DNA of 64,000 nt from an uncultured virus (IMG/VR IMGVR_UViG_3300002125_000001) (taxonomy: Duplodnaviria; Heunggongvirae; Uroviricota; Caudoviricetes), in IMG/VR virus record IMGVR_UViG_3300002125_000001. One strand, given 5' to 3'. Positions 29,161 through 50,110 of this stretch are shown here, piece by piece (the stretch's first letter is position 1; each line of letters begins with the position of its first letter). A model generated the notes under the pieces. That model was not told the origin of the DNA, made no database searches, and was given only the letters and a program-made list of their open reading frames with translations. A program made the translations under genes and the position numbers.

Positions 29161-29673
29161 TTAGTGATAATCCGTAATTTCCTGTATTTCAATTTCTGTA
29201 ACTTTCGACCAATCTAAATTACCGTTTGCATCTACGGGAATTGGATCATGCTTTGGCACAAAGATTAAACGCCACCCACCATGCAAAGCGCCAGCAAGTT
29301 GCCCTGCCCTATCGTCTTTTAAGCTGTGAAAATTACCTTTATTGTCACGAACTCCCCGCAATTCTTTACGCCCCTTCAATTCTTCAAGTGTTATAGCTCT
29401 TTCAAGTCTCTTTAATTGCTTTTCAAGCACAATATGATTTTTTGGATTTCCACCATCGCCTCCAAATTCGATATTTCCGGGCGTACATTCAGCTTCTACC
29501 TGAGGATTAGCGTAGGAAATGCCAACCATATTATCAACGGCGTCATCATTCCAAACCTTGCCGTCTGCCGACTGACATTCTTTTATGGTTTGGAACGACG
29601 CATTGCCGCCGATGCAACGACAATCGCCAGAACCAGGCAGTTCGCTAAAACTGTTTACAACATTCATTTTCAT
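29161..29673 (-). CDS. class B leader fused to a HigB/RelE-like (plasmid killer) toxin domain
   Basis: C-terminal FHSLKDDRAGQLAGALHGGWRLIFVP...DWSKVTEIEIQEITDYH is the HigB signature; N-terminus MNVVNSFSEL...ASFQ...VDN|M. Confidence 0.8.
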   Translation of the reverse strand: MKMNVVNSFSELPGSGDCRCIGGNASFQTIKECQSADGKVWNDDAVDNMVGISYANPQVEAECTPGNIEFGGDGGNPKNHIVLEKQLKRLERAITLEELKGRKELRGVRDNKGNFHSLKDDRAGQLAGALHGGWRLIFVPKHDPIPVDANGNLDWSKVTEIEIQEITDYH

Positions 29674-29685
29674 TCTCCTTTTTAT

Positions 29686-29713
29686 AGTATGCCGATTTCT
29701 TAAAATAAATCAA
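29686..29713 (-). promoter_or_regulatory. sigma70-like promoter TTGATT-N16-CATACT
   Basis: Related motifs at 44015-44041, 44828-44855, 55595-55623 and 58996-59023, each just upstream of a minus-strand gene. Confidence 0.55.
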
Positions 29714-29737
29714 CAAGCATGGATTCAAAAAGGCAAA

Positions 29738-29757
29738 AGCCCGCCACGTGGCGGGCT
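29738..29757 (-). terminator. palindrome AGCCCGCCACGTGGCGGGCT with minus-strand U-tract; terminator after the tape measure gene
   Basis: Perfect 20-bp palindrome 8 nt after the TMP stop, running into a T-rich tract (TTTTGCCTTTT) on the minus strand. Confidence 0.65.
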
Positions 29758-29765
29758 CGCCCATT

Positions 29766-32700
29766 TCAATAGTTCCTGTTTGCCCCGCCCGCCAGTCCGG
29801 CCGGGCGGTTGTAATTGTTGGTCACGTACTCATTGCGACCCTGCGGCATCATCGCTCGCTGTTGCGTGGCCTGGATCAATTGCGGCATAGAGGTTGTCAG
29901 GAACGTCATCAAATTCGCGTGTTGCAATTGCATATTACGGTCCATTGTGATCGTTGCATCGGCGGCGGGGTCCGTAACATGCCCGAACGCGGCGGCCTGT
30001 ATCCGTTCCCACGTACCCTCCATCGAATCCTTACCGCCCACGTCCTCACTAATCAGACCCCGGTACGTACCGCTTGCGGCCATACGGTCGGAGATCGCCT
30101 CGGCTATTTGTTTACTATTGTCCATTTCCGCCCTTTGGTTGGCGTATTTCTCTTGGATTTGCGCCATTTCCGATTCGGTTACGCCGCGTTCTTTGGCCCG
30201 TTCGGTTTCGCGTTTCTCCTGCACCGTTAAATCACGCGATTGCCGTTCGTATTGGAGTTCCCGGTTGCGTTTTTGAATCGCCTTCATCCAATCGGCACCG
30301 GTTTGCGCACCGGCCATATCGACGGCGAATTGTGTATTGATATTCCCCTCGCGCCGTTGGGATTCGCCGCGTGTTTTTATCATATCGGCTTGGAAACTAT
30401 CGGCTCTTTTCCTACGTTCGGCATCAAGTTTTACCCTTTCTTCTTCAAGTTTTTGGGCGCGTTCCTGTTCTTTTTTTGACGCCGTATTTCTGGCTTCCCG
30501 TCTGTCGTCGGCTTCCATTTTTTGTCTTTTCTGTTTCGCGTCCAGATCGTCCTGCGCCATTTGATGTTGGCCTTTTTTGGTAGCTTGGTCCATAGCCAAT
30601 TTACCCAATTGTGCTGTCCCTTCCTTGTAGCTTGCAGCCAACGTTTCCAGACTTGCCTTTTGATCGCCGTTATTGATGCCTAGTTGCTTCAATATATCTG
30701 CCAATATGTTGTTGCCCTGCATAGCTTGCGCAAGCTGCGCATCGCCCGCCGCGGCGGCGGCCTTCATAGCATCTGATATATCTGCGTTGGCTTCTTTGAG
30801 ACCCTCTTTCATTGCTTCTTTCGCTTTGTCGTCTGCTACCTGTTCATCTGTCAGGCCGGGCGTTGTTTGAGAAGGTGGACCGCCACTTGTTACTGCGCCT
30901 GTCCCTGAAATCTCGCCCGGTTTCGCTTTCTCAATCTGCTCCTTAAAATAGTCGCGTATTTCAATAGCCGTTTTTTCATCGCCATCTTTTGAAAGCGCAT
31001 TATTTATCATACCTTGTACTTTTTTGCGTTCCTCAGGACTTAAATCTGCCGTCTTAAGATAGGAAGCCATTCCTGTTGAAAGTTCTCTTGTCGCGGATGC
31101 CGCACTATCTTTCTCAGCAAACAAATTCCAACCGCTTCTTTCTTTATTGCTCTTATTTGCTTCTACAACGGTAGAACTATCCGCATACAATTTACGGAGT
31201 TCCTGCAAGTTTTTCAGTTGCTCAGGCGTTAATTCAGGCGTTTGTTCCTGTTGCCCCTGTTGTCCTTGCGTCTGCTGTTGCGGCGGCTGTTGTGGGACAT
31301 TCGGGGTATTCGCCCATTGCTGCACGTCCTCGCGGGCGGCCAATTCGCGCAGTTTTTCAACACGTTTATCGCCCGTCAAACCTCTGACTGCATCGTTAAA
31401 TTCACTTATTTTCCCCTCTTTTTGGAAAAATGCTTGAAGGCTGCTCTCCAACTTTTGGCTACCTGCAGTAAACCCTTCCATTATTTCCCTTGCCAACGCT
31501 CTCTTGTCGTCGTCCGTAAGCTCTGCCTTGACCTTTTTCTCTGCCTCTGCTTCGGACATACCCTTGCCCATAAGGTCTTTTTTCTGCTGCTCCAAACTAG
31601 CGATAAACGCCTGATCGCGGCCACCTCCTAAAGACGCCGATTGTGCTAGTGTTTTTTTCATTTGTTCCCAGCCCATATTTTCTATGGGTTTTGCCCACGT
31701 CGTAGGATCGGTCAGCGCGGCCGCTGCTTTCGCCTGTGCTTCTTCCATCTGCTTCCGGTATTCGACTTCTTTCTTGATATACTCCAACTGCATAGCGAAC
31801 CGGATCGCCATCATTTGAAGTTCCAATTGGTGTTTCATCTCAACCATTTTCATTTCAAATTGGGCTTGATCTTCGTTCTGCTGTTGTTGGAGCGCGTGTT
31901 TTTCCTTCATCGCGGCATCGTCTTCCTGATTCTTTTCGGCGGTGTCCAACGTGGCCTGTCTCTCTTCCATTTTCGTGACAATCCGGTCGAATTTTTCGGC
32001 GATTTCAATAAGCTGCAAATCACGCTGAATGTCGAACGGGGATTTGCCGTATGTGTCCATCGTTACGATTTGACGGTCCAGAACGCGGTCGAGCGTCCGT
32101 TGGAACAAATCGCGTTCTCGTTTCCGGTTCGCCAACACGGTCTCGAATGTTCGTATTTCGTTGTTCTTTCGCAACTTGTTGTACTCCACGGCCATATCGA
32201 CCATTTTCTGGTGCAAATCAAGCGCGATCTTTTGTTCCAGATCGAACCGGGCCTTTTGGTACTCGGCTTCATGCTCAACGCGGGCCTCGAACATTGATTT
32301 TTCCGCTTCCAACCGTACCTCCATTTCTCTTTTGGCATCTTCTCCCTGTAGAGCGGCGATACGCATCTGCGAGGCTTCGTACGCGACGAATTCCCGCTTC
32401 TGTCTACCGGCCCACTGCGAACCTCCGGACATATCTTTCCAATCGCCTGCCGACGCCGCGGCTTGCTTGGCCAAATCATGCAATTTATTACGGAATTCTT
32501 TCTCTGTGTTAATTTCGAGTTCGATGCGCGCCTTTTTGGCGGCCTGCAGCTCTTTTTCTTTATCCGCCAATTCATTGGTCATTCTTATTTCTTCATTTTT
32601 CCATTTGTCAAATTCATCAAAAGCCTTCTTTTGATTTTCACGCGCCTTTTCAACTTGTGCTCGCACTTCCACGTACCGTTTGGCTATCCGTTCCTCGGTT

Positions 32701-35700
32701 TCCACGTACACGTTTCCTTTTTCATCTGCGTACGTATACTTATTCCCTTGTTTAACGGCCCGTTTTTTCACGCCCTCAACGCCGCCCTCCCACACAGCTA
32801 CAAGTTTCGCATCCATCGAGTTTGCAAGTTTATCAAACTCATTTTTGAACCTTTCATTCATTTGTTCTACACGTTCTTTAAACGAATCGGGGATTTCCCA
32901 ATCTCCCGCGAGAATTACGTCAAGCGCGCCTTCATAGCTTTTGAACAACTCCTCGAATTTTGTCTTGACGGATTCCGCTATTTGATTGTCCCAGTTTTCC
33001 AAATCCGACTGTAACTTAGCTGCCTTTGCCTGGTCAATACCGGGCATCCCAAGAAAACCATGCCCCCAACTTCTTACGGACGCGCTTACCTCGTTGCTAT
33101 ACGTGTGGCCCTGCCCCGAGCGCAATTTGGGCAACAGATCGCCCTTCAAACTGGCGACGGCCAGACCAACAGCGCCACCGGCTACGGCTCCGATGGCCCC
33201 GCCAATAACCGCACCGAGGGGCCCTGCAGAAAGGCCAACGGCGGCTCCCAATTTAGCGGCAAAAGCAGAACTTGCGACTGCGGCAGTCAAACCTGTGGCA
33301 GTGGCCGTAATAATACCTGCCCCAGCGCCGATCCCCACAGCTCCGGGCATAATACCCGAATCTCCGTGCAACCCCTCACGCCGTGCCGCCTGTTGCTGCT
33401 TCCAATGCTCCATTTGTTTTTCAAACCTTTCGCGTACCTGCTGCACGCCTTTCTGCTTAACCTGGGCATCTTCCTGCGATTTTTTACGACGCTCATCAAT
33501 ATCAAGCAGCCGACGTTGGGCAGCCAAATCTGCCGCCGTCATCGTGAGGCTATCGGCGGCCATTTTCTCACGATTCCTTGCCCTCAATTTTTCCATATTG
33601 AACTCGGCCTGCATAGCGGCCAGCCGCAGTTGCGATTCTTGTTGGACCGCCAGTATACGCATTTCAGAAAGCTGTTTATTGAGCAGCATTTCTCTTTTAT
33701 ACGCCTCGTTTCTACGCTTTTCCCATAACGACCAAAAAGACGCGATTCCAGCCGCGATTAGCCCTACCCCCACCAAAATGCCTGTAGTGGCGGCAGAACC
33801 GCCAATTTTAGCAAACCGGCCGCCGCCCGACTCTGCCAGGGCTACATTGGCTGCATTTTGCGTCCCTACTCGTTGCGCTCCCGTCTGGAAAGCGTCCTTC
33901 GCCGCCTGCGGAGCCTTAGACTGCGCGAGCACGCTATCCGTATATTTTTTTATATCTTTAGTGTACAAATCCCCCACGATTTTCGTCAAATCGCCGCCCC
34001 TCTCGGCAACGATCTTTTTCCCCTGCGCAAGCGCCGACTGCATTGCCTTTTCGGACGCCGCCTTAAATTGGGTCATATTCACGCCAGCATCTTTGGCAAG
34101 CCCGGCAAGACCTGCTATGCCTTTCTTAGCGTTTCCAAACGCGAGAATGGTATCCAAAGATTTACCGGCGTTCGTCATGGTAGTCATAACGTTCTTCATA
34201 CCCATCAGGCCCGCGCTTGCCTGATCGACAATTTTTAGAAAACCATCGGGAATAGGAACGCCGAACGCTCGCATATCGCGCATCGTTTGGTTCACCTTGC
34301 CCAACGCGCCGTGCAGACGTTCGATAGAGCCAACGGCGGATTTGAATTTAGTGATTTCCGTATGCAGTTTTTGGAAATCGCCCCGGATCGAAACGGCCTG
34401 TTGCCCCAACTCCTTTTGCTTCTGGATCAGCGCATCGAACTGTTTGACCTCCTCCGGCGTAATAATGCCCAAAGATTCCTTCTGTTCCATCTTCTTGATT
34501 TCATCCCCTATATCTTTGGCTTTTTCCCTTACCTCATCCATTGAAGACGACAATTCAACGAACTTTTCCTGCATAGCGATAACGGTAGCCGGGTCCAACG
34601 TCCGGGAAGGATCGATACCCGCTATAGCGCCATCAACTTCCCCCAAAGCATCCGCAACGCCGTCCAACTGACTCTGTATACCATCCGTATCCAACGACAA
34701 ACGAAGATCGCCGCTGGTTAGCGCATCAATCTGTTCTTTCGTCATTTTCGCGCCGGTGCCCAATTGCCGGGTAACATCGAGTATTTCCAACAGCGAGGTA
34801 GGGGGCGCACCGTCTGATTTAGAGATAGCCTGTATAGTGGCAATCGCGTCGCCCATATCGAACGCGATGTCGCGGGCCACCCGTTGCGATTCCTCGCCGA
34901 CCTCAACAATATGCTTTTTCAAATTCTCGTATACACCTGCAGTATCAATATCGGAGACGGACACGCCCGCCTTGTTTGCGCTCTCCTCAAACTTAGCCAT
35001 CGCCGCGTTGACAGTATCAATTCCCGCCTTCCCATTCTGAAAATCGGCCAGCGCAGCGTTAAGCATCTGGAACGCCGTCGATACCTGTTTGCCACTTTTG
35101 GGGATCGCCTTAATCGCCTCGTCCATTTTCCCGGCTTCGGCGGCGTACTGAGTAAATTCGGACACGGGCAATTTCATGCCGCCGAGTTCTTCCAGTTTCT
35201 TCCGGTACTTTTCAACTTTTTCAATGTCCGCGTCGCTAACAAGAGCACCCGTCGATTGGATGTCTTTGAACGATTGTTGCAATTGTGGCGGGAGTTCCAA
35301 TTTTTCCAATTTGCCGCCGATAGTTTCGACGTACTTGGCGAACGTTTGGGTGGATATACTACCCTGATCTAATTTCTCTTTTGCCCCGTCCAAGATGGTC
35401 AGCAGGCGTTCGGCTTCCGCCTTATCGCCGAAATCCAATTCAAAACCCTGCAAAGCGTCTTTTGCCGTCTTGAACTTTTGCTCGAATTCAGTCAAATTAG
35501 ACTTGGCGTTCGAGAGCATCTTTTCAATCTCGGCGTCGGCCTCTTTCAACTTCTCCGTCAGCCCGCTGGAAGAGATCGCCGTGTTCATACGGCTAAACAA
35601 CGAACTGACAAGCGTAGTCATCGATTCGGCGACTTTTCCGGCCTGCTCCGTCATACCGTTATTCATAAGGAGCATGAACTGTTCGATCTGGCCCTTAATC

Positions 35701-36253: not shown

Positions 36254-37420
36254 ATGCCCACGCAAAAGAAACAAAAAATGACGCCAGAAAACGATTTCCG
36301 TGAAATACTCCAAGAGACATTCCAAAAAATTGCACACGCGGCCACAGAAAATGAAAAACACTTAAAAAAACAAGAGACCAACAGCAGCATGACCGAGACG
36401 GAAACGATCTCTATACTGATCGAGCCGCTTATTACCATACTGGGGTACGACAAGAACGATCTTCGGGAAATCAGACAAGAATACACAGCAAAAAAGCAAA
36501 CAACAAAAGGGAACAAAAGAGTAGACATTGCGATTCTCCAACGGCAGGATGGGAAAGCAATAATGGTCTGGGAATGCAAGGCAAGAAGAGTGCCGCTCGG
36601 CAACTCAGGGGTTTCGCAGCTTAGGGGATACTTTAAAACTCATAGGGCTGCCATTGGCGTTCTTACAAACGGCATCCACTACCAGTTCTACACAAACATC
36701 GACAACCCCGAAAGTAACGAAATGGACAACGAACCTTTTCTGGAATACAACACAGGCAATAGTCTACCTCCCAATCAACTTGATGTTTTTGAGTACCTTA
36801 GAAAAGACAAGTTTAATCTGAAACAAATACACGAAATAGGAAAAGAACAAAAGGACATCAACAGGATCAAACGGGTACTATACAGCCTTTTTTTGGAAAC
36901 AGGCCCAGACGAATTTTACCAAATAACAGCGGCAATGGCCAAACTCGGGAAAGGACTCGCCGAATCAAAACAGATTATCAAATCCGCCTTCATACGCATG
37001 GTAGAAGACGGCGTAATCCCAGCCGAAAGCACAGGAATTTTATACAAGGAAAAATTCGACGAATGGAAAACCAGTTTGTCAGAAACGACCGTGAAACTTT
37101 TTGAAAAATTAGAAAAGTACGTGTTAAGTCTCGAAAATGTCAAAACAAACCTTTCAAGTGCGTACAAAAGCTACGCGGCCCGCAAACAATTCATGCAAAT
37201 GATGTACTGCGGCGGAAGAAAGAAACTAAGAATTCTACTGCTGGGATTGAACGTAGAAGAAATGGGAAAAGCCAAAAAATCATTGGAAAACACAGAGATA
37301 CAATATCACGGCAAAGAACTTAGACTCTTTATAGAGAACGAGGACAATTTGGAGAGAGCCAAACCGATTATTGAAAGAGCATACGAAAAAGCATACGAAA
37401 AAACGACAAAAAGAAAATAG
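36254..37420 (+). CDS. HsdR_N-like PD-(D/E)XK nuclease with C-terminal DUF5655-like domain (moron, possible defence gene)
   Basis: LIEPLITILGYD..EY...RVDIAI....WECKA...QLRGYF...GVLTNGIHYQFY; opposite strand, A-rich. Confidence 0.75.
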   Translation: MPTQKKQKMTPENDFREILQETFQKIAHAATENEKHLKKQETNSSMTETETISILIEPLITILGYDKNDLREIRQEYTAKKQTTKGNKRVDIAILQRQDGKAIMVWECKARRVPLGNSGVSQLRGYFKTHRAAIGVLTNGIHYQFYTNIDNPESNEMDNEPFLEYNTGNSLPPNQLDVFEYLRKDKFNLKQIHEIGKEQKDINRIKRVLYSLFLETGPDEFYQITAAMAKLGKGLAESKQIIKSAFIRMVEDGVIPAESTGILYKEKFDEWKTSLSETTVKLFEKLEKYVLSLENVKTNLSSAYKSYAARKQFMQMMYCGGRKKLRILLLGLNVEEMGKAKKSLENTEIQYHGKELRLFIENEDNLERAKPIIERAYEKAYEKTTKRK

Positions 37421-37426
37421 CGCCAA

Positions 37427-37473: not shown

Positions 37474-38148
37474 TTAGCCGTCGAGCGAGGCAATAAAATC
37501 TTTAATTTCGTTGACCTTCGCCTCAAACGCATCCCGGTACTTTGGGTCTACTTTCACGTCCGGGCGGTTCATGTGCATCCGCCCTATAGTGATCCATTGT
37601 TGTATCCCTTCGATATTTTGCTTAAACGACGCATCCATTTTATTCAAAAAGCGTTCTTTTTCCGCCAACTTATCTCCCCATTTGGAAGGATCGGATTTCG
37701 CAAAATCGCCCAAAAACTTTTTTGAAGTAGCGTCAATATCTTTCCACTTCAAATCCGAACGCAAATCTCGCAAATCCCTTGTCATCACATCTAAAACAGA
37801 GCCAGGAGTACGCGGCCCAGTCAACGTGCTCATATCCGTATACCCGCTGCTCGGATCGTATACGTACTTGATTTCGTTGAACGCGGCCTGGCTCGACCCG
37901 GCCGGACGCGATTGCCCGCCGGTGTTACGCTCGAAAACGCTAAGATCGGCCACCCCGTCGCTACTGTAGTATTCCCTATCGCTCATATCATCCTCATCTT
38001 CTTTAACTTCATAAGTGTCGGCTACGAGTGCCCTATAGTTCTTCCAATCTTCCCACGTAACGCCGTTCCACAAGGCAACAAGGAAAAAGTAGCCCAGAAT
38101 CAAAACTGGCGTTAGCACAACACCGATTATAACAAAAGGTATAAACAT
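37474..38148 (-). CDS. membrane-anchored protein carrying an internal class A leader motif
   Basis: N-terminal TM helix, then VADLSVFER...SQAAFN; alternative ATG at 37986. Confidence 0.6.
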   Translation of the reverse strand: MFIPFVIIGVVLTPVLILGYFFLVALWNGVTWEDWKNYRALVADTYEVKEDEDDMSDREYYSSDGVADLSVFERNTGGQSRPAGSSQAAFNEIKYVYDPSSGYTDMSTLTGPRTPGSVLDVMTRDLRDLRSDLKWKDIDATSKKFLGDFAKSDPSKWGDKLAEKERFLNKMDASFKQNIEGIQQWITIGRMHMNRPDVKVDPKYRDAFEAKVNEIKDFIASLDG

Positions 38149-38915: not shown

Positions 38916-39281
38916 TTAATCTTTTCCTAAACTGTCATTATCATCCTGGATAATATCGGTTTTAATGTTGTGGATTGCCGTTCTGCCTTCCGGAGCGCAT
39001 CGAGAACTGAACGCCTGTACAATTTCTAAGCGAATGTAGCGGTATGGGCACATCTGTTCCGCTTCAAGTTCCGGCGGCATCAAAACATTTTCAACGTTGA
39101 ATGCGGCTATGCGGTCGTTGTGTTTCACAAAATTGCGTATCGTTACCTGCAATTCGTCGATAACCAATTTGTCGCCCCGGACAAACATTTCAACAAACTC
39201 ATCTATTGACCGGACATCCCAAATCGTACAACCGGGTAGCGTCCAACCTCTGGGCGGCCTTATTGTTATTTTAATTTTCAT
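38916..39281 (-). CDS. partner gene of leader ORF 39278..39697
   Basis: ATGA overlap with the upstream leader ORF. Confidence 0.65.
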   Translation of the reverse strand: MKIKITIRPPRGWTLPGCTIWDVRSIDEFVEMFVRGDKLVIDELQVTIRNFVKHNDRIAAFNVENVLMPPELEAEQMCPYRYIRLEIVQAFSSRCAPEGRTAIHNIKTDIIQDDNDSLGKD

Positions 39282-39697
39282 TGTGATCCGCCATATTTTT
39301 CTTTAAAATAATCATCGTATTGGACAATATCTGATATTGTATAAACGCCCAATTCCATTAGCTCTTTTTTTCTATCTGCGTAATCATCTTTCCGTTTATC
39401 AATCATCGACATCATCGCCTTATTAAGGTGCTGTTGAATTCTATCGCCGTCAGTTGGCATCCTTAAACGCCGCGATTCTTCGATAACTTCCTCTTCTAGC
39501 CCTAGAATAATATCTTTTTGTTTTTCCGCATCCCATTCGTTCCACGGTTGTGGTTTGCCTATAAACTCAGCATTATCAACCGTTGCGCCTTCGGTCGTGT
39601 TTTCCTCTTGAAACGCTGACATATTGCCGCTACCACCGGCTTTGCCCGTTTCAAGCAATTCATTGAAACTACTCGCTACTCTCATTTTATGTTTCAT
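39278..39697 (-). CDS. class B leader + unknown cargo
   Basis: MRVASSFNELLETGKAGGSGNMSAFQ...VDN. Confidence 0.75.
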   Translation of the reverse strand: MKHKMRVASSFNELLETGKAGGSGNMSAFQEENTTEGATVDNAEFIGKPQPWNEWDAEKQKDIILGLEEEVIEESRRLRMPTDGDRIQQHLNKAMMSMIDKRKDDYADRKKELMELGVYTISDIVQYDDYFKEKYGGSQ

Positions 39698-39756: not shown

Positions 39757-40074
39757 CTAAGGGTTATCGGGGCGACGGTTCCAAATATGGCTCACGTACT
39801 GCAACACGTTTTTAATCGAAACTTCATTATCTGCAGCACAATCGTGGTATGTCCGTAACAAACAAGGAAAACAAGCAACGTGGAAGTAATGGGGGTCTGC
39901 GTTAGACGGCGTATAGCTGTAAACAACATACACATCTGTTTTTCCGCATTTAGGACATGGCAGCAATTCGCTCTCTGTCTGTCGGATTAAACGCTTTAAT
40001 TCATAAGCATCCTCCAAATCGTCCAAAGAGTATCGCAATTTTTCAGGAATATTTTGTTTTATTGTCGTTTTCAT
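39757..40074 (-). CDS. Lar-like (restriction alleviation family) Zn-finger partner protein
   Basis: LLPCPKCG...VACFPC...WNRR. Confidence 0.7.
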   Translation of the reverse strand: MKTTIKQNIPEKLRYSLDDLEDAYELKRLIRQTESELLPCPKCGKTDVYVVYSYTPSNADPHYFHVACFPCLLRTYHDCAADNEVSIKNVLQYVSHIWNRRPDNP

Positions 40075-40092
40075 GTTTTTCTAACAACAGTG

Positions 40093-40422
40093 CTATTCAA
40101 ACCAGCCGTGCCCGTATTTCCATTTGCCAAAACCATGCGTATTCTTAAATTGATCCGCCTGTTCTCTTGTAATTGACCGATAGCCTTCAAGAAAAAACGG
40201 ATTGCCTTCAGAACCCGGTTCTGTTACAACAATGTCATACCCATCTCTATCCTGCGCAATATACAGCGAAATATCATAAAAAGATACGGGAGATAAATCC
40301 TCAACGGGCTTTTCTCCGGTCGGCATATTCTCCACTGAAACAGATTGAAACGCTGACATATTGCAGCTGCCACCGGCATTGCCCGTTTCAAGCAATTCAT
40401 TGAAACTACCCACTACTCGCAT
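40093..40422 (-). CDS. class B leader + cargo X
   Basis: MRVVGSFNELLETGNAGGSCNMSAFQSVSVEN|MP; cargo ends FKNTHGFGKW. Confidence 0.75.
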   Translation of the reverse strand: MRVVGSFNELLETGNAGGSCNMSAFQSVSVENMPTGEKPVEDLSPVSFYDISLYIAQDRDGYDIVVTEPGSEGNPFFLEGYRSITREQADQFKNTHGFGKWKYGHGWFE

Positions 40423-40478: not shown

Positions 40479-41588
40479 TCATTCATTTCCCGCCTTGAAA
40501 TTATACAACGGTTTTATTATTTTGACAACTTCCATCGTATCGCGGCTGTTCTCGATAATCTCGTTCATCGGCTTGTACGCCTGCGGTGCCTCGTCAATAG
40601 TCGCCCGGTTCACGGTGGACGAACAGATTCCTTTCATCGATTTCTCGTATTCGATTAGCGTGATCTTTTCCTTCGCCTCTTTGCGGCTCATTACACGCCC
40701 GGCACCGTGCGGAGCCGAAAAGTTCCAATTGGCGTTCCCCTTCCCTACGCAAAGGAGGCTACCGTCCCGCATATTCATAGGCACCAATATACAGTCGCCG
40801 CTTCGGGCCGATACCGCACCTTTTCGTAAGATCATCGCATCCAAATCAATGTAATTGTGTACGACGGAAAACGTATCGACGATCTTGAACTTCGCCTGTT
40901 TTGATATGTCGCGGGCAATGGCCCGTCGGTTTAAGTCGGCGTATTGTTGGACGATGCCCATATCATGTAAATAATCGGACATCGGGGAGCCTTCCAAGTA
41001 GGCCAGTGCCCTATCGTCGCCTTCCTTTGTCCGACCCAACGTGTCGGCGGCCACGTTCTGATAATAGTCGCAAACCTGTTTGCCCAGATTGCGACTTCCG
41101 GAATGGACAATCAAATAGAGCTGTCCGTCATCGTCTTGCCCCAATTCAATAAAATGGTTCCCTCCGCCGAGCGTGCCCATTGAATGGGACGCACGGTGTA
41201 AATCGACGTGTTTTACGCATTTCAATTCAAATAAATCAATATCCTCGTTGAAATGATGCGGATCGTGTCGGGTGTTAAAACCAGCGGGTATGTTTTTTAT
41301 AATCGCCTTGTCGAGTTGGTTTGGATCGACCCGTTTCTCCTTTATCAACGCGACGAACATCCCGCAACAACCGTCCGTCCCCACTAAATTGGGGACAATC
41401 TTATCCGTAATCGTCATGGTCATTCCGACCGTACCGACCTGCCCGCTGTGGACATCGGGCATTACGCGGATTTGGCTTCCTTCGACAAATGGCTGGTTCA
41501 GGATATGCCGAATCTGCGCAATTGCGCCGGGTTCGGTGGTATCCGTGAATATCTTTGCCGTATTGTATGTTCCTTGTAATTCAATCAT
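40479..41588 (-). CDS. rtcB: RtcB RNA ligase
   Basis: MPDVHSG, VGTDGCCG, GTLGGGNHFIE, VHSGSRNLG, HNYID..ILRKGA, SAPHGAGRVMSR, DEAPQAYK. Confidence 0.95.
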   Translation of the reverse strand: MIELQGTYNTAKIFTDTTEPGAIAQIRHILNQPFVEGSQIRVMPDVHSGQVGTVGMTMTITDKIVPNLVGTDGCCGMFVALIKEKRVDPNQLDKAIIKNIPAGFNTRHDPHHFNEDIDLFELKCVKHVDLHRASHSMGTLGGGNHFIELGQDDDGQLYLIVHSGSRNLGKQVCDYYQNVAADTLGRTKEGDDRALAYLEGSPMSDYLHDMGIVQQYADLNRRAIARDISKQAKFKIVDTFSVVHNYIDLDAMILRKGAVSARSGDCILVPMNMRDGSLLCVGKGNANWNFSAPHGAGRVMSRKEAKEKITLIEYEKSMKGICSSTVNRATIDEAPQAYKPMNEIIENSRDTMEVVKIIKPLYNFKAGNE

Positions 41589-43717: not shown

Positions 43718-43957
43718 TTAATCAATAAGCAACTTTATCTTATCAGCAACTTCCTTTCCGTAATGTTCGGCCAACAGCGAATACATTGAATGCCCGGCTT
43801 CCTCATAGTTACCGTGTTGTTCATGTAGCCATTTATCGAACTTGTACGGGTCTAAAAACGGTCTGCCCGTCAGCCACGAGAGCATACCGTCAAGGAAATT
43901 GCATATTTGCATATCGAACGTATCCCTAAAAAATTTGATCGCTTCCTGGTGAGACAT
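43718..43957 (-). CDS. hypothetical phage protein
   Basis: 79-aa ORF downstream of a promoter-like motif. Confidence 0.55.
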   Translation of the reverse strand: MSHQEAIKFFRDTFDMQICNFLDGMLSWLTGRPFLDPYKFDKWLHEQHGNYEEAGHSMYSLLAEHYGKEVADKIKLLID

Positions 43958-44037
43958 ACGCCAATTCCCGTTCTAAAAAAAATACAAGTTAAATCAAAAA
44001 AAAACTTCCAACTAAGTATGCCGGATTATAACGCGAA

Positions 44038-44799: not shown

Positions 44800-44862
44800 G
44801 TGAATTGAAAACGATTCATTTACCGTATGTATGCCAGAACGCGCCAGAAATTCAAGAACAAA

Positions 44863-45312
44863 TTAGCATCTTCGCCGGGGGAAACGCGCCGGGACCGCCT
44901 GCAGGGTAGGGACAAACGATTGTCGGCCCTGCAATGCCAATTCCGTATCCGCCATGCGCTGGGCAAGGCAGTTATTCGGATCGAGCAGCATCGCCTGCTG
45001 CCCGTGCAAAGAACCTCGAAGGAACGCATCGGTAGTCATAGCATACGCCTCGCTGGCCGCGCCGACCGATTTTGAGGTAACAACGCCGGTAGATACCTGG
45101 AACTGGTGCGCCGCTAGATAAAGCGTAATCGCCTCGATCTGCTCAGGCGTATAATTTGCCATACACCCGTTCAAAATACTTGTCTGGACCATAAGCGACG
45201 CGGTTTTGATAGCCATATCCAACGTCGCGTCGGCGGTCGGCGGTATGTTCGGGTACACCTCCCGTACTTTTCCGTGCGTTGTGTAGGGCGGGGTCATGTC
45301 TTTCGGTGCCAT
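44863..45312 (-). CDS. head-tail adaptor (DUF4054-like)
   Basis: YLAAHQF...VTSKSVGAASEAY...LRGSLHGQQAMLLD. Confidence 0.8.
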   Translation of the reverse strand: MAPKDMTPPYTTHGKVREVYPNIPPTADATLDMAIKTASLMVQTSILNGCMANYTPEQIEAITLYLAAHQFQVSTGVVTSKSVGAASEAYAMTTDAFLRGSLHGQQAMLLDPNNCLAQRMADTELALQGRQSFVPTLQAVPARFPRRRC

Positions 45313-45342
45313 TGCTGCTATATTGTATGATTGGTTATTGTC

Positions 45343-45705
45343 CTATTTTTTCCGTTTCAATGCCTCGCGCACTTGGCTATCCTGTTCGTCGGCGATTTCG
45401 TAGGCAACGGTATCGTTCGCGTTGTGCGCATCCCGCAGCTGAATCCTAAAAAAATTGACGAGTTTATTCAAATCATCAACGCTATAGGCGGCGTACTCTT
45501 TGATGTTTTGTTCTCTTTCGCTTACCAATTTCTTCAGGTCCTCGGAACCGACGGCACCCTGAAAACTAAGCGTCCAGTCCAATTTTCCTTTTGGTTCCCG
45601 CATCGAGGGTAGCGGACCAACCGGGACGGGCATCGCCGCGTTAAATGAGGCATTAGCGCATTGTTGCAAATGCTCAAACTGTGATATGTCTGCCAATTTT
45701 TTCAT
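45343..45705 (-). CDS. class A leader + unknown cargo
   Basis: MKKLADISQFEHLQQCANASFN. Confidence 0.75.
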   Translation of the reverse strand: MKKLADISQFEHLQQCANASFNAAMPVPVGPLPSMREPKGKLDWTLSFQGAVGSEDLKKLVSEREQNIKEYAAYSVDDLNKLVNFFRIQLRDAHNANDTVAYEIADEQDSQVREALKRKK

Positions 45706-45735
45706 TGTGATTCCACTAAAAATTACGCACGTCCG

Positions 45736-46209
45736 TCATATAACAAATGAATCTTGGCTGTCGTTCCAATGCCGCCTATCAATATAATTTACGGATAATT
45801 CCAAACCTGCGATAGTACAAACAAAGTGGTGTCCGCAATGATCCGTATGCGTATCCCAATGATAACCAAGCGATATTAAATCATCAACCAGGGCCATTTC
45901 AAATTCCAACAATTTGTGTTTTGGTCGTCGCCATAGTTTAGAAAGTAGCACAAAACCTGGATTTCCACGTCGTCCCAACGCGGCATAGTATAGCCCTTTA
46001 GTTAGCCAACATATAGGATTTAATTTGTTCAAAACATACGGCAATTTGAAATTGAATTCTAAACCGTAGTCTAAAACCACAAATCGAAAAAACAAACCTA
46101 AAAACGCCAACTTAATTGCGACGTTAATCACGCTATGCCTACTGTACCACCATTCTTTTAAACTGTCCATTCTAATCCTCTCGTAACAGCTGTTGCCTTG
46201 CCTGCTCAT
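45736..46209 (-). CDS. partner of the DUF4160-cargo ORF, with a hydrophobic segment
   Basis: Overlaps the 3' end of 46172..46609. Confidence 0.5.
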   Translation of the reverse strand: MSRQGNSCYERIRMDSLKEWWYSRHSVINVAIKLAFLGLFFRFVVLDYGLEFNFKLPYVLNKLNPICWLTKGLYYAALGRRGNPGFVLLSKLWRRPKHKLLEFEMALVDDLISLGYHWDTHTDHCGHHFVCTIAGLELSVNYIDRRHWNDSQDSFVI

Positions 46210-46609
46210 CTTGCCAATCTTTTACAAAACCATTTCTGTTCTTTTTAATGTGTTTTTTGATGTCGCTTACAATAGGGGCAGGTATGCCATTATTTTCGGC
46301 CAACTCGACAACGGCCTGACCATTGTATTCAAGCCAAAATTTTGCTTTTCCTTCCGGCGTATAGACGTGAACGTGCATAGGTTCTGTTCTGCCGCCATGC
46401 TGTTCTTCGTCAACGTAAACAGAAAATGAAAAACCACGAAATGGCGGCGTATTCTTTGATTTGGGCGACATATTGCCGACAACGGCACTTTGAAATGCAC
46501 CTGACAACTTGGAAACTGCCGCACCATCATTAAACATGGACATTTCGCTTCGAGGCATATCCCAGTTCCCCAACGATTCAAACATTGATATATCAGCCAA
46601 CCTTTCCAT
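46172..46609 (-). CDS. class A leader fused to a DUF4160-like domain
   Basis: MERLADISMFESL...MSMFN...AFQ..VGN|MSP; cargo GFSFSVY..E.H...EPMHVHV....GKAKFWL...VELAENNG...W. Confidence 0.8.
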   Translation of the reverse strand: MERLADISMFESLGNWDMPRSEMSMFNDGAAVSKLSGAFQSAVVGNMSPKSKNTPPFRGFSFSVYVDEEQHGGRTEPMHVHVYTPEGKAKFWLEYNGQAVVELAENNGIPAPIVSDIKKHIKKNRNGFVKDWQDEQARQQLLRED

Positions 46610-46641
46610 TATTCTATCTTTCTTCGTGATTCGGCGAGTTG

Positions 46642-47025
46642 TTACTCTTGGAGATACCTACGATTCCATGATTCGCATATACGTCTTAGAGATTCTTTGA
46701 AATCTTCTTCATCGTCTTCCGCATACCATGTTACTGTTTGCATACCGCATTCTGGATTGCTGCAACTAGCGTATAATCCATGAGGATTTATTGTAAATTC
46801 CACGCCGTAAGTGCCATCTTCTTTTTTCACGCTTCGTCCACCATTTTTTCCGGGATAAAAGGCGTATTCAATACGAGGCTTTTCCTGCCCACAATTTGCG
46901 CACGGTAACAATGAAACCTCAAACGGTTCTATTAACGCTAGAATTTCGGCTTCATTTTCCAACATGCAGGCATAAAAACAAGCGGCAGAACCGGGCTTGA
47001 ATTCTGGGGTCAATTTACTATTCAC
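46642..47025 (-). CDS. Lar-like Zn-finger partner protein
   Basis: LLPCANCG...CSNPECGMQT...WNRR. Confidence 0.7.
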   Translation of the reverse strand: MNSKLTPEFKPGSAACFYACMLENEAEILALIEPFEVSLLPCANCGQEKPRIEYAFYPGKNGGRSVKKEDGTYGVEFTINPHGLYASCSNPECGMQTVTWYAEDDEEDFKESLRRICESWNRRYLQE

Positions 47026-47422
47026 AGCTCACCTCTTCATTTTCAAATTTTACCAAACCTTCTATACTGTCGCCCCAAGTAGAACCGGAACGAACGCGGT
47101 TTATGTATTGTAACGCCTCTGCCCGGTCCGTAAAAGGCGATCCTTGTACAACAAATGAATCTTCCATCGGGTTATCTGGGTTTGTCGCAATTATATCCAA
47201 ACCTTTGCCTTCCGGATTTTTTCGTAACGAAAATTTATACTGTTTTCCGGTCATCTTGCTTTTAGGCTTACTAAAATTTGGCGACATACTATCTACGATG
47301 GCATCTTGAAAAATCTCCGACAGGCGAGCAACCGCACCACTATTAAACATGGACATTTCGCTTCGAGGCATATCCTCGCTCCCCAACGATTCAAACATTG
47401 ATATATCTGCCAACTTTTCCAT
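47018..47422 (-). CDS. class A leader + cargo X homolog
   Basis: MEKLADISMFESLGSEDMPRSEMSMFN; leader DNA near-identical to 46521..46609. Confidence 0.75.
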   Translation of the reverse strand: MEKLADISMFESLGSEDMPRSEMSMFNSGAVARLSEIFQDAIVDSMSPNFSKPKSKMTGKQYKFSLRKNPEGKGLDIIATNPDNPMEDSFVVQGSPFTDRAEALQYINRVRSGSTWGDSIEGLVKFENEEVSCE

Positions 47423-47460
47423 AGCAGTATGCAAAAAAAGAAAAAATACTGATCAAAATT

Positions 47461-47991
47461 TTATTTCAATCCGGCCCGCACATTGTTGTCCATATCTTCA
47501 ATATCGTTTTTGAATGTTTCGTATGCCGCATCGAGGTCTTTGTCGCCGTTCTGCAATTGATCGAAAATTCTGTATTGTTTATCCGCCTCTTGCGACAACT
47601 TGGTATGCGAGTGCAAAAACGTACCCAACGAATCCAACATCCCCTGCTCGCCCTGGGCTACTTTTGCCAGTGTCTGTATCTCTTTTTTCGGTATACTGGG
47701 AAACTGTTTGACGACTGATTTAAGCGTCCGTTTACCCCCGTTCAATTCACGCAGGGCCGAATAGACCTTTTTGAATTCGGGTCCCGTCACGCCCCGGCTC
47801 TCAAACTGTCCCATAAACGCCTCTTTTTGCGCCCGGAAATCATCGCCCGCCTGTGCCGCCTCGTAATGGAACGGCTTTACTTTTTCAACGAACCCGTCCG
47901 ATAATTGCGAGTTGAAACACGACATGGGCGACATCATGCGTTGATTCGCGTGTGCCTGCAACGATTCAAATTGTGAAATATCTGCCTGCAT
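47461..47991 (-). CDS. class A leader + helical cargo
   Basis: MQADISQFESLQAHANQRMMSPMSCFN. Confidence 0.75.
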   Translation of the reverse strand: MQADISQFESLQAHANQRMMSPMSCFNSQLSDGFVEKVKPFHYEAAQAGDDFRAQKEAFMGQFESRGVTGPEFKKVYSALRELNGGKRTLKSVVKQFPSIPKKEIQTLAKVAQGEQGMLDSLGTFLHSHTKLSQEADKQYRIFDQLQNGDKDLDAAYETFKNDIEDMDNNVRAGLK

Positions 47992-47995
47992 TGTC

Positions 47996-48514
47996 TTACT
48001 TTTGTTGTGCGTAGTATTGCATCGCTTCCTCTTTGGTAGCGAATTTTGGCATTTCTTTTTTCGGTTGCGCCGTCCCGCCGGGCAATTCTACGGGTTTGAA
48101 AGCGTCGCCGCCCAACAGGTACGTATTGCCCAAAAACGACTTGGCTATCGCCGCCTGTTTTTTCATCAAGCGGTCATGCGCTTTCGGATCGTCTTTAACC
48201 TGTTCGCCTTCCTGTCGTATCTCGCGGCTAACTTCGCCGACCCCGGCTTTCATAGTATCGACCGCGTTATCGATTTCCGGGCGGATCGATTTGTATGTTT
48301 GCTGCGCCTGCCGCACTTCCTGCTCGTTTCGGGAATGCCAAATATCCTGCTGCGTTTCGTAGACTCCGCGCAAACCGCCTTTCAATATCTCATAGGCGCG
48401 GTCCATCGATTGGAGCGTCTGGTCCAATTCGGGCGAATTGAAGCATGACATAGCAGATACCCCGCCACGTGGCGGGGTATCCAATAATTCGTTAAATGAA
48501 TTTACAACTCGCAT
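47996..48514 (-). CDS. class B leader + helical cargo
   Basis: ATG at 48514: MRVVNSFNELLDTPPRGGVSAMSCFN; the palindrome lies inside the leader codons. Confidence 0.75.
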   Translation of the reverse strand: MRVVNSFNELLDTPPRGGVSAMSCFNSPELDQTLQSMDRAYEILKGGLRGVYETQQDIWHSRNEQEVRQAQQTYKSIRPEIDNAVDTMKAGVGEVSREIRQEGEQVKDDPKAHDRLMKKQAAIAKSFLGNTYLLGGDAFKPVELPGGTAQPKKEMPKFATKEEAMQYYAQQK

Positions 48515-48516
48515 GG

Positions 48517-48864
48517 TTATCTTTGGGCTATTGCCTGTTCTATCCGATCCAAACGAGTATTTGTATCGCTTTGCAACCGGAGTAGTTTTGCATCTACGTT
48601 TGCAAAACCGTTCTTTGTGGTGATTTCCAAATTGTCCATTCGGCTTTCTAATTTTCCAAACCGTTCGTCTATTTTTCCAAATCGCTCGTCCACCTGCTTC
48701 CTCCACTCAACCAATGGAAGATTACTCTGTATAGGCGTAGCTGAACTTATGGGACTTATGCCACTCGGCGCATTTTGCACAGGATTAAACGCCCCCAAAC
48801 CGGAAACAGGGGCACCCACGGCTCCCAACGATTCAAACATACCAATATCAGCGAGCTTTTCCAT
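48517..48864 (-). CDS. class A leader + coiled-coil cargo Y
   Basis: MEKLADIGMFESL...GAFNPVQN; cargo RMDNLEITTKNGFANVDAK. Confidence 0.75.
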   Translation of the reverse strand: MEKLADIGMFESLGAVGAPVSGLGAFNPVQNAPSGISPISSATPIQSNLPLVEWRKQVDERFGKIDERFGKLESRMDNLEITTKNGFANVDAKLLRLQSDTNTRLDRIEQAIAQR

Positions 48865-48869
48865 GTTTA

Positions 48870-49292
48870 TCACTTTCGTAAAAGTTGTTCCCGGTACGCT
48901 TGGTAGCTTTCGGGCGTTAGGTTCAGGTAACGGAGCATTTCCTGCGAAGGCGTCTCCGTTTTTCTAATCGCATCCTGTACTTGCAACATCCCCTTTTCGC
49001 GTGAGGCTCGTTCGGCGCCCCAATCGTCATACGGATCATCCTGCCGGTCCCCGGCGGCGTCGCCCGTAGCGAAATCGGGGTAGACCCGCTTGATCGTTTT
49101 GGCTACATCGCGTGGGTGCATCCGACCCCCGTCGTCCAAATAAGAGAGCATATCGGGCAGGGTAGTGCCCTGGAACGCGGCGTTTACGCTCACGGCGCGC
49201 AGGCTACGGTCATCAAACGTAAACATAGCGGGTATGCCAAATGCCGCGTTCTGTTGCGTCTGTAGCTGCGAAAATAGTGGGATACTGTCCAT
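48870..49292 (-). CDS. class C leader + unknown cargo
   Basis: 41-aa leader identical to that of 49748..50110. Confidence 0.75.
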   Translation of the reverse strand: MDSIPLFSQLQTQQNAAFGIPAMFTFDDRSLRAVSVNAAFQGTTLPDMLSYLDDGGRMHPRDVAKTIKRVYPDFATGDAAGDRQDDPYDDWGAERASREKGMLQVQDAIRKTETPSQEMLRYLNLTPESYQAYREQLLRK

Positions 49293-49330
49293 TTCAATTT
49301 ATAGGCGTTGACGTTACTACAACAGTATGA

Positions 49331-49729
49331 CTACTTACCTGTCCTTTTATTCCATGCGCTGCAGACGCGCCTTAACGCTTCTACAAAATCGTCTTCGGTA
49401 TCTTCGGCATTCCACACTCTTGTTTGGATTCGGCAATCTTCAATATCTGAGGGCGGATCAGTAGCAGCATTTCGGCAACACACAACATACAACTCATGCG
49501 GGCATTCCTTCATGGGGATTTCGCCGTTTGGTTGCAGCTGAGTTGGGAACATATTACCGGGGCGGTACATGTAATGTACATGCGGACGATCATTTCCGCA
49601 ATGCGCACAGGGCAGCAAGGTGGCATCAGCCTCGTTAATGAGGGTAGCTATTTCGGACTCGTTTTCAAGCTCGTACAAAAAACAACGAGTACGGCCATCA
49701 CAATTGCCTGTTTTTAGTTTTGTATTCAT
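49331..49729 (-). CDS. Lar-like Zn-finger partner protein
   Basis: LLPCAHCG...WNKR; N-terminus similar to 46642..47025; GAGG RBS. Confidence 0.7.
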   Translation of the reverse strand: MNTKLKTGNCDGRTRCFLYELENESEIATLINEADATLLPCAHCGNDRPHVHYMYRPGNMFPTQLQPNGEIPMKECPHELYVVCCRNAATDPPSDIEDCRIQTRVWNAEDTEDDFVEALRRVCSAWNKRTGK

Positions 49730-49747
49730 TATTGCACCTCATAAAAG

Positions 49748-50110
49748 CTAAAATAAGTACCCCCACTTATCAAACTTATGCGTATTTTTGAACGCGATTG
49801 CTTCTTGAGCCGTTATATTATCCATATCTTCGATATACGCTGTTTGTTTGCCGCCATCGGGGTCTGAAACGGCAATCCCACACCTGTCCGTTCCTTGAAC
49901 AGGGTGTAGCGAAAAAACGTAATGTCTGTCTGGACGCAATTCTGATAAAGAGATTAAGCCGCTCGGAAAGTTTTCTACGGAAACGTCTTGGAACGCGGCG
50001 TTTACGCTCACGGCGCGCAGGCTACGGTCATCAAACGTAAACATAGCGGGTATGCCAAATGCCGCGTTCTGCTGCGTCTGCAACTGCGAAAAAAGAGGGA
50101 TAGAATCCAT
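49748..50110 (-). CDS. class C leader + cargo X
   Basis: MDSIPLFSQLQ...AAFQDVSVEN|FP; cargo ends FKNTHKFDKW. Confidence 0.75.
   Translation of the reverse strand: MDSIPLFSQLQTQQNAAFGIPAMFTFDDRSLRAVSVNAAFQDVSVENFPSGLISLSELRPDRHYVFSLHPVQGTDRCGIAVSDPDGGKQTAYIEDMDNITAQEAIAFKNTHKFDKWGYLF

What the first reader, a model, noticed from the sequence alone, without database searches (positions are those of the whole stretch)
29161..50110. Leaders end in V-x-N just where the captured domain appears to begin: putative Asn-specific maturation site
Seen in sequence: VDN|MVGISY (HigB-like start), VGN|MSP (DUF4160-like start), VEN|MP, VEN|FP, VQN|AP, IEN|AP, VDN|AE, VYN|AN, plus many xxFN| junctions. In the two recognisable cargos the Asn sits directly before a Met that looks like the original start of the captured gene. 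The capsid protein (SITN|G, QTTN|AATLRK) and the protease (LLIN|E, YINN|D, TSFN|E) carry similar hydrophobic-x-N sites. Inference: the DUF2213-like protease cleaves after Asn (perhaps also Gln) and releases native effectors inside the head.
Basis: partly seen in the sequence, partly recalled or inferred. Interest (0 to 1): 0.8.

Follow-up and report, generated by a model that had tools for sequence, protein, structure and literature searches.

The report
Asparagine-cut leader tags on phage proteins
About thirty unrelated small proteins of a large uncultured phage start with a shared tag that ends in the same Val-x-Asn motif found at the processing points of its capsid, scaffold and head protease, so the phage probably loads them into its head and trims them there, as phage T4 does but with an asparagine rule; no cut has been measured.

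Summary
Confirmed and extended. The window lies in a 168-kb phage (G000). 31 small ORFs across the genome share a two-part leader; 29 of 31 have F-N or [V/I]-x-N in the first 62 residues. [V/I]-x-N is enriched in leaders (19 vs 7.4; 9 vs 3.2 in leaders outside the window), not in cargo or tail proteins, and it studs the scaffold (17 vs 5.0). In 128 leader proteins from other genomes conservation stops exactly at V-F-N (V 120, N 124), so the 'xxFN' and 'V-x-N' sites are one signal. All 65 capsid proteins keep Asn where the shell domain starts; the protease has the T4 gp21/assemblin fold and Asn at its own domain end. 11 of 11 HigB-like cargos keep Asn at the junction under several different leaders. 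A 172-kb relative carries protease, scaffolds and 13 leaders together. Gln cleavage is not supported. Best reading: a T4-like capsid-targeting and maturation system with an Asn-specific DUF2213-type protease. Cleavage, packaging and ejection are inferred; Sf11 proteomics fits only partly. The scan noted an Asn rule in another DUF2213 phage before (e1-5947989).

The parts
29161..29673 (-). Leader + HigB/RelE-like cargo; inferred cut after N48 (nt 29530-29532), second candidate N42
37474..38148 (-). Internal leader behind an N-terminal hydrophobic helix; leader ends A-F-N91
39278..39685 (-). Leader (F-Q type) + unknown cargo; V-D-N38
40093..40422 (-). Leader (F-Q type) + cargo family X; V-E-N32; followed by a Lar-like zinc-finger gene
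45343..45705 (-). Leader + unknown cargo; S-F-N22
46172..46609 (-). Leader + DUF4160 cargo (Pfam residues 60-133); M-F-N27 and V-G-N46|M
47018..47422 (-). Leader + diverged cargo X; M-F-N27 kept, second site decayed to V-D-S45|M; followed by a Lar-like gene
47461..47991 (-). Leader + unknown cargo; C-F-N27
47996..48514 (-). Leader (with the 16-bp palindrome inside) + unknown cargo; C-F-N26
48517..48864 (-). Leader + coiled-coil cargo; A-F-N27, V-Q-N31
48870..49292 (-). Leader (third type) + unknown cargo; only S-V-N37 before A-A-F-Q, one of two leaders with neither F-N nor [V/I]-x-N
49748..50110 (-). Leader (third type) + cargo X; V-E-N47; followed by 49331..49729 (Lar-like by eye, no Pfam hit)
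50484..50828 (-). Leader + coiled-coil cargo; A-F-N27, I-E-N31
50858..51250 (-). Leader of the commonest type + cargo shared with 5 foreign proteins; V-F-N29
51489..52283 (-). Leader + unknown cargo, directly downstream of the protease; V-F-N30
52407..54101 (-). DUF2213-type prohead protease (domain residues ~11-185). Invariant H71, S133, D162, H163 (catalytic role inferred); inferred self-cuts at N11, N185, N204/205
54745..55278 (+). Leader + coiled-coil cargo Y with a second S-V-F-N near the C-terminus; own TG-TATAAT promoter-like site; convergent partner gene
59096..60247 (-). Major capsid protein (DUF6260, encapsulin-like HK97 fold) with a 71-residue propeptide; inferred cuts after N13 and N71
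61342..61773 (-). Leader + unknown cargo; ends V-F-A-D-N33 (neither F-N nor [V/I]-x-N)
62217..62489 (-). Diverged leader (F-Q type) + short cargo; V-Y-N31
4590..5123 (+). Probably broken leader gene: the first motif changes frame and a 16-bp palindrome lies inside; not counted among the 31

Best explanation
The phage has a T4-style loading and maturation system with an asparagine rule. (1, shown) About 31 small genes carry a 25-50 residue leader: an amphipathic motif (A-D-I-S-x-F-E-x-L and variants), a spacer, then (M/L)-S-V-F-N or a later V-x-N. (2, inferred, ~0.8) The DUF2213-type serine protease at 52407..54101 cuts after Asn, preferring V/I at P3 and a small residue at P1'. It removes the capsid propeptide after N71, chops the scaffold at many sites and frees its own domain after N185. 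(3, inferred, ~0.75) The same protease removes the leaders. (4, inferred by analogy with T4, ~0.6) The first motif ties the precursors to the prohead core, so trimmed cargos end up in the head and some are ejected into the next host as counter-defence or takeover proteins. New cargos are recruited by fusing a leader in front of a captured gene; selection keeps an Asn at the seam.
For: Scaffold G000:110703-111791 has 17 [V/I]-x-N vs 5.0 expected, while tape measure, four tail proteins, tube, portal, polymerase and helicase show no excess. The same test recovers the known T4 rule on gp22 (16 vs 5.7). 47 non-redundant homologous scaffold tails: hydrophobic P3 before Asn 398 vs 250, z 10.6. 65 of 65 capsid proteins (query included; 63 by pattern, 2 by eye) have Asn 2-4 residues before the L-R shell motif, at variable spacing; the encapsulin match starts at residue 74. 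In the homologue Sf11 gp39 the cryo-EM model starts at residue 46, right after the aligned N45. Asn follows the protease domain in 57 of 59 and 45 of 46 unselected homologues. Protease model matches T4 gp21 (Z 11.5) and herpes assemblins (8.5, 6.9). 128 foreign leader proteins: V 120, F 128, N 124, then entropy jumps from 0.25 to 3.36 bits. HigB-like cargos keep junction Asn in 11 of 11 with different leaders. All 13 leader hits in the 5.2-Mb genome G001 lie on the one 172-kb contig that also encodes protease, capsid and Asn-studded scaffolds. In TLS, whose protease looks like the canonical DUF2213 type by eye, the Edman-sequenced capsid start follows Asp, so Asn is a small step.
Against: No cleavage, packaging or ejection is measured. 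Sf11 mass spectrometry covers residues 40-356, so peptides across N45 exist; the cut there is at best incomplete or lies at N33/N36. Scaffold tails of the six cultured relatives show no hydrophobic-x-Asn excess one by one. The terminase large subunit, not expected to be a substrate, is also enriched (15 vs 5.5; two sites are intein ends). Hydrophobic-x-Asp (z 4.5) and -Gly (z 4.9) are also raised in scaffold tails. The foreign leader set was found with a profile that rewards F-N, so part of its uniformity is selection. Several plus-strand leader genes have their own sigma70-like promoter, which does not point to late-only expression. S-A-F-Q or A-A-F-Q also ends four proteins, where a cut would release nothing. 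Many cargos are coiled-coil or acidic and may be structural filler.
Confidence: 0.65

Rival explanations
1. The Asn rule is right, but the tagged proteins are accessory prohead-core or filler proteins that are trimmed or destroyed during maturation and are not delivered as effectors.
For: Many cargos are coiled-coil, acidic or low-complexity. Some leader proteins are themselves studded with V-x-N like a scaffold (L177, P0103). Only 1 of 133 foreign leader proteins has a Pfam match above cut-off.
Against: Cargo parts generally lack extra sites (4 vs 9.7; 57 vs 55.9). 151 cargos fall into 114 clusters, a turnover that fits an arms race. Recognisable cargos are HigB-like, DUF4160 and an ECF-type sigma factor.
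Confidence: 0.15
2. The leaders are cytoplasmic protease-sensitive switches. Toxin-like cargos are held inactive or made early and are switched on when this phage's own head protease, or that of a competing relative, appears (late timing or superinfection abortion). No packaging is involved.
For: Plus-strand leader genes have their own TG-TATAAT promoter-like sites. Toxin-like cargos sit next to possible antitoxin genes (DUF2442 match of 22.7 bits, under the 23.9 cut-off). Host immunity triggered by prohead proteases is recalled from the literature, not checked here.
Against: A switch needs only the cut site, yet a separate amphipathic motif ~19 residues upstream is strongly conserved. About 30 unrelated cargos per genome is more than a timing device needs. 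Leader genes cluster beside the protease gene in G000 and in L163/L164.
Confidence: 0.1
3. Asn is not a scissile residue. V-x-N or S-V-F-N is a binding or structural motif (docking on scaffold or shell like an encapsulin cargo-loading peptide, or a helix cap), or the leader is a host export or degradation tag.
For: The second motif also occurs at C-termini. The capsid is a close relative of encapsulins. Sf11 peptides span N45. The terminase control is enriched.
Against: The motif marks exactly the places where prohead proteases are known to cut: the shell start, the protease domain end, many sites in the scaffold. Spacing to the shell motif varies, P1' is mostly small, and loss of F-N is made up by a new downstream x-x-N in 3 of 4 foreign and 6 of 7 own cases. 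All 13 leader hits in G001 are on the phage contig, none on its other contigs.
Confidence: 0.1

Closest known systems
Phage T4 capsid-targeting sequences of IPI/IPII/IPIII/Alt with prohead protease gp21 (PMC9026906, passages read)
   Same: Short N-terminal propeptides on unrelated small proteins; a three-residue rule hydrophobic-x-P1 shared by capsid propeptide, scaffold (cut many times) and protease; same protease fold (Z 11.5); variable cargo between related phages.
   Different: P1 is Asn, not Glu. The leader is 25-50 residues with two motifs, against 10-19 in T4, and has no profile match to the T4 leaders. About 31 tagged genes scattered over the genome, against 3-4. The capsid is DUF6260/encapsulin-like, not gp23.
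Giant-phage head maturation: SPN3US gp245 (A-x-E), phiKZ gp175 (PMC10052503, passages read)
   Same: Propeptides with several redundant sites, protease self-cleavage, incomplete processing seen by mass spectrometry.
   Different: Glu-specific; propeptides are mostly long and not one shared tag; unrelated capsid type.
DUF2213 head-maturation proteases of T1-like phage TLS and Pbunavirus Pa193 (PMC11447400, PMC11456595, passages read)
   Same: Same Pfam family for Pa193 gp24 and the window protease; protease or protease-scaffold gene with a processed capsid.
   Different: There the mature or modelled capsid begins after Asp (TLS: Asp directly before the Edman start; Pa193: Asp64, model from 66), and a G-R motif follows the His strand. 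This clade has G-A-C there and Asn at its sites. No tagged-cargo family was looked for in those phages.
DUF6260-capsid phages Sf11, ES18, TW1, KpV2811, StAshley, Hardycor1
   Same: Homologous capsid and protease with Asn aligned to query N71. Sf11's capsid is reported as probably cleaved.
   Different: 45-70 kb genomes. I did not search them for leader families. The Sf11 passages read name no cleavage rule, and the Hardycor1 text has no occurrence of 'protease' or 'cleav'.
Family 1 encapsulin cargo-loading peptides (recalled)
   Same: Shell homologous to EncA (E 1e-13); a short motif at either terminus of cargo.
   Different: This is a tailed phage with portal and terminase; its tags end in a protease-type site; binding to the shell is not shown.

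Membership tests
DUF2213 / assemblin-fold prohead proteases | Pfam DUF2213 match above the curated cut-off | tested here: met
   32.2 bits vs cut-off 22; PHROG 530 head maturation protease E 3e-9
DUF2213 / assemblin-fold prohead proteases | Fold of T4 gp21 / herpes assemblin | tested here: met
   Model pLDDT 90.7; Z 11.5 to 5JBL, 8.5 to 1VZV, 6.9 to 8J3S
DUF2213 / assemblin-fold prohead proteases | Conserved catalytic His and Ser | tested here: inconclusive
   H71, S133, D162, H163 invariant in 42 sequences; equivalence to the gp21 catalytic residues not shown, the sequence comparison with gp21 found nothing
DUF2213 / assemblin-fold prohead proteases | Proteolytic activity and P1 specificity | not testable with these tools
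   Needs an in vitro digest or a virion proteome
T4-type capsid-targeting sequence system (works like) | Shared N-terminal propeptide on unrelated small proteins | tested here: met
   31 ORFs in G000; 213 profile hits; 151 cargos in 114 clusters
T4-type capsid-targeting sequence system (works like) | Propeptide ends in the motif that also marks scaffold, capsid propeptide and protease | tested here: met
T4 CTS family (membership) | Sequence similarity to the IPII/IPIII targeting peptide and the L/I-x-E rule | tested here: not met
   Leader profile gives no match to IPII or IPIII; Glu not enriched after V/I in leaders (8 vs 8.5)
T4-type capsid-targeting sequence system (works like) | Tagged proteins are packaged and ejected | not testable with these tools
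   Uncultured phage; no proteome
HigB/RelE toxins (cargo of 29161..29673) | Sequence family match | tested here: inconclusive
   phrog_3066 E 1e-4; profile to PDB 6F8S killer protein E 0.008; a leaderless homologue hits Pfam HigB below cut-off
HigB/RelE toxins (cargo of 29161..29673) | Adjacent HigA-type antitoxin | tested here: not met
   Downstream gene 28633..29154 gives only a weak DUF4288 hit, no HTH family
DUF4160-DUF2442 pairs | DUF4160 domain | tested here: met
   Above cut-off in 3 of 4 copies (41.6, 36.5, 26.1 bits; the fourth 15.4)
DUF4160-DUF2442 pairs | DUF2442 gene downstream | tested here: inconclusive
   2 of 4 neighbours scanned: one 22.7 bits (cut-off 23.9), the window neighbour 45736..46209 no hit; the other two resemble it by eye only
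Encapsulin cargo-loading peptides | Peptide binds the inner face of the shell | not testable with these tools
   Needs binding data or a prohead structure

The most novel reading that the evidence does not exclude
A clade of large phages of Planctomycetota with an encapsulin-like capsid uses one swappable, Asn-released tag to pack dozens of captured proteins into its head, among them toxin-antitoxin toxins (antitoxin left untagged in the producer cell) and a sigma factor, and injects them into the next host. The leader would then be a sequence marker for a catalogue of more than 100 unknown injected proteins, and the Asn-specific enzyme would define a new specificity class within DUF2213 that extends to cultured phages such as Sf11 and ES18.
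Probability: 0.4. Interest if true: 0.8.

Novelty: new variant of a known kind. Interest (0 to 1): 0.62.

Why it matters
It gives a precise, testable cleavage rule (V/I-x-N, small P1') for a widespread but barely studied prohead protease clade, and part of it can be checked at once in cultured relatives. It suggests that T4-style cargo tags arose independently on a different capsid lineage and at about ten times the gene number. The tag marks over a hundred cargo families without known function as candidate injected counter-defence or takeover proteins. The logic itself is known from T4 and the giant phages, and nothing is measured, which caps the score.

Tried and rejected
Gln as a second P1 residue: rejected (marginal signal noted). 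A DNA-level repeat as the cause of the leaders: rejected, since motif codons vary synonymously and conservation is in frame. Homology to T4 targeting peptides: no match. Profile comparison of the protease with T4 gp21: nothing; only the fold search links them. Complex prediction of capsid precursor with the 32-residue leader: no verdict, score 0.00 in two runs, not evidence either way. ESM Atlas on the leader: no hit at 0.9. Viral-contig search with the protease alone: nothing; the leader alignment was unusable for the search for related loci. DNA pattern scans: 11 of 49 foreign metagenome loci had profile hits, one of which (L128) does not look like a leader; of the 4 viral-contig loci, three read by eye showed no leader and the fourth overlaps L108, which had no hit. 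DUF4160 homologue search returned only the query. Sequencing runs: no RNA holder listed. The ES18 paper (Casjens 2005) is not held; my recollection that 51 residues are removed from its coat protein, which would put the cut after N51, is unverified. Searches for an Asn-specific prohead protease or a DUF2213 rule in the open library found none; subscription journals are not covered. One possible antitoxin gene outside the window was left unscanned.


Full report
SETTING. The window is G000:C1:32778-96777 of a 167,820-bp virus record, 94% complete. It encodes tail genes, a tape measure protein, a DUF2213 protein at 52407..54101 (PHROG: head maturation protease) and a DUF6260 capsid protein at 59096..60247. 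Portal, terminase and a scaffold-decoration block lie outside the window (named by similarity and gene order). The run that holds the DNA is labelled termite gut metagenome and may be its source. Three of the five genome-collection hits to the close-protease alignment are in genomes titled Planctomycetaceae, which makes a planctomycete host likely but unproven.

OBSERVATION. All quoted sites exist; two lie outside the stated range. The leader family is larger than the finding: 34 candidate ORFs on both strands across the genome. I dropped three before counting (one frame-shifted, one 14-residue stub, one without the first motif), leaving 31. A further HigB-like paralogue with a more diverged leader (G000:107977-108489) is outside this count. 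The leader has an amphipathic first motif, a spacer and a second motif ending F-N or F-Q. 29 of 31 have F-N or [V/I]-x-N in the first 62 residues; of the 7 with F-Q and no F-N, 6 have [V/I]-x-N further on. In 26 collapsed leaders [V/I]-x-N occurs 19 times against 7.4 expected; the cargo parts have 4 against 9.7, and 106 control ORFs 34 against 25.2. The broad hydrophobic class gives no significant excess (28 vs 21.8).

THE LEADER IN OTHER GENOMES. A profile of 26 leaders finds 213 proteins among 1.84 billion representatives; 150 were listed, nearly all matched at the N-terminus. After removing 16 own and 1 long hit, 133 remain and 128 could be anchored: P3 is Val in 120, P1 is Asn in 124, and column entropy rises from 0.25 to 3.36 bits straight after the Asn; P1' is mostly A, D, S, E, G or T. 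The profile rewards F-N, so this is partly selection. The sharp end and the excess of second [V/I]-x-N sites in the next 15 residues (27 vs 10.5; rest of cargo 57 vs 55.9) are less affected by that. Cargos are very diverse: 151 fall into 114 clusters. One foreign protein has two leaders in tandem before an ECF-type sigma factor, the only Pfam match above cut-off among 133.

CARGO SEAMS. The HigB-like cargo occurs with several unrelated leaders. All 11 leadered copies keep Asn at the seam (V/I at P3 in 6, Thr in 5); Met follows in 6, Lys or Leu in 5. Three copies share one contig length and are not independent. A leaderless homologue starts one residue after the query's Met. Four DUF4160-like cargos in G000 all follow N|M; their native start is inferred, as no leaderless homologue was found. 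Cargo family X appears three times in the window under three leader types, so leaders are swapped as modules.

THE HEAD PROTEINS USE THE SAME MOTIF. The scaffold-like protein G000:110703-111791 has 17 [V/I]-x-N against 5.0, its neighbour 5 against 1.5; tail, tape measure, tube, portal, decoration, polymerase and helicase show no excess. The terminase does (15 vs 5.5, two of them intein ends), which I cannot explain. The same test on T4 gp22 recovers the known L/I-x-E rule (16 vs 5.7), and scaffolds of two relatives give 14 vs 3.9 and 19 vs 3.8. In 47 non-redundant protease-scaffold tails from viral contigs, hydrophobic residues precede Asn at P3 398 times against 250 (z 10.6; also P4, z 9.1); Gln -1.6, Asp 4.5, Gly 4.9. 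All 65 capsid sequences have Asn 2, 3 or 4 residues before the shell motif, and 55 of the 63 matched by pattern have a second x-x-N-G near the start. The encapsulin-like shell begins at query residue 74 and the DUF6260 profile at residue 71. The protease keeps Asn just after its domain in 57 of 59 and 45 of 46 unselected homologues; N11 and N185 are invariant in the 24 of 47 close homologues aligned.

THE ENZYME. The model (pLDDT 90.7) matches T4 gp21 (Z 11.5, rmsd 3.2, 138 residues) and herpes assemblins. H71, S133, D162 and H163 are invariant in 42 sequences; their catalytic role is inferred.

LINKAGE. In G001 all 13 leader hits are on one 171.6-kb contig, which also carries the protease, a capsid ending its propeptide in Q-N|A, and two Asn-studded scaffolds; leader genes follow the protease there as in the window. 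Leader proteins P0023, and P0035/P0043/P0110, share longest-contig lengths with protease homologues P0169 and P0171, which suggests, but does not show, the same contigs.

EXPERIMENTAL HINTS FROM RELATIVES. Sf11 gp39 (PMC12724387, passages read; its one supplement held 1,460 characters and no hit, so peptide data were not seen) is modelled from residue 46, directly after the Asn that aligns with query N71. The same paper reports peptide coverage from residue 40, so that bond is not fully cut. ES18 gp9 has Asn at 51 in the same column; that 51 residues are removed is recalled and unverified. In TLS the Edman-sequenced capsid start (PMC11447400, passages read) follows Asp, and the Pa193 model starts at 66, two residues after Asp64 (PMC11456595, passages read); supplements of these two were not opened. 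So canonical DUF2213 proteases appear to cut after Asp and this clade after Asn. The six cultured relatives' scaffold tails show no excess one by one. Hardycor1 (PMC7911831, term search) says nothing on processing.

MECHANISM. Shown: the tags, their end point, the motif's spread over head proteins, the fold, the linkage. Inferred: cutting after Asn (~0.8), removal of leaders by this enzyme (~0.75), packaging and delivery (~0.6), from the T4 and SPN3US precedents (PMC9026906 and PMC10052503, passages read). Points that do not fit neatly: own sigma70-like promoters on plus-strand leader genes, C-terminal copies of the second motif, one leader behind a hydrophobic helix.

NOVELTY. It works like the T4 system but is not a member of it. 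Searches in the open library (listings only unless named above) found no Asn-specific prohead protease and no description of this leader; subscription journals were not covered. The scan's own notes hold an Asn rule for another DUF2213 phage and similar tag systems with other rules; these are leads, and one pointed me to the TLS paper. Verdict: real feature, new variant of a known kind, interest 0.62.

Noticed in passing
window 4633, 29741, 42629, 48462, 55653 and 13 more places in G000: A perfect 16-bp GC-rich palindrome occurs 18 times; 6 lie within 200 bp of a leader gene start (1.4 expected) and two sit inside leader-coding DNA. REP-like element, terminator or binding site; absent from L163.
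   Followed up: partly
window 54745..55278 (+) with 55212..55610 (-); G000 25900, 98754, 126904: Cargo family Y genes overlap tail to tail with a conserved partner gene on the other strand, and end in a copy of the leader's second motif preceded in three cases by an Asn.
   Followed up: partly
window 39757..40422, 46642..47422, 49331..50110: Cargo X is followed three times by a Lar-like zinc-finger gene, which looks like an effector-partner pair.
   Followed up: partly
G000:107501-108489 and window 28633..29673: The HigB-like gene and its downstream neighbour are duplicated as a pair with different leaders; the neighbour is not HigA-like.
   Followed up: partly
P0014: Two leaders in tandem in front of an ECF-type sigma factor, on a 2.6-kb contig.
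   Followed up: no
window 59096..60247 vs G000:108688-111791: The capsid and protease genes are separated from the scaffold-decoration block, which is contiguous with them in relatives L163 and L164; the ancestral protease-scaffold fusion is split here.
   Followed up: partly
G000:148237-151377: Terminase large subunit of 1046 residues with two apparent inteins and an unexplained excess of [V/I]-x-N.
   Followed up: no
G000:116912-117324: A leader split into a 14-residue stub and an out-of-frame ORF that starts at the second motif.
   Followed up: no
window 40479..41588, 36254..37420, 55685..57414: RtcB RNA ligase, HsdR-N endonuclease-like gene, and a ParB-like plus PAPS-reductase-like (DUF3440) gene pair among the late genes.
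   Followed up: no
window 59096..60247: The capsid profile scores higher against Family 1 encapsulins (E 1e-13) than against any solved phage capsid (Sf11, E 1e-8).
   Followed up: no
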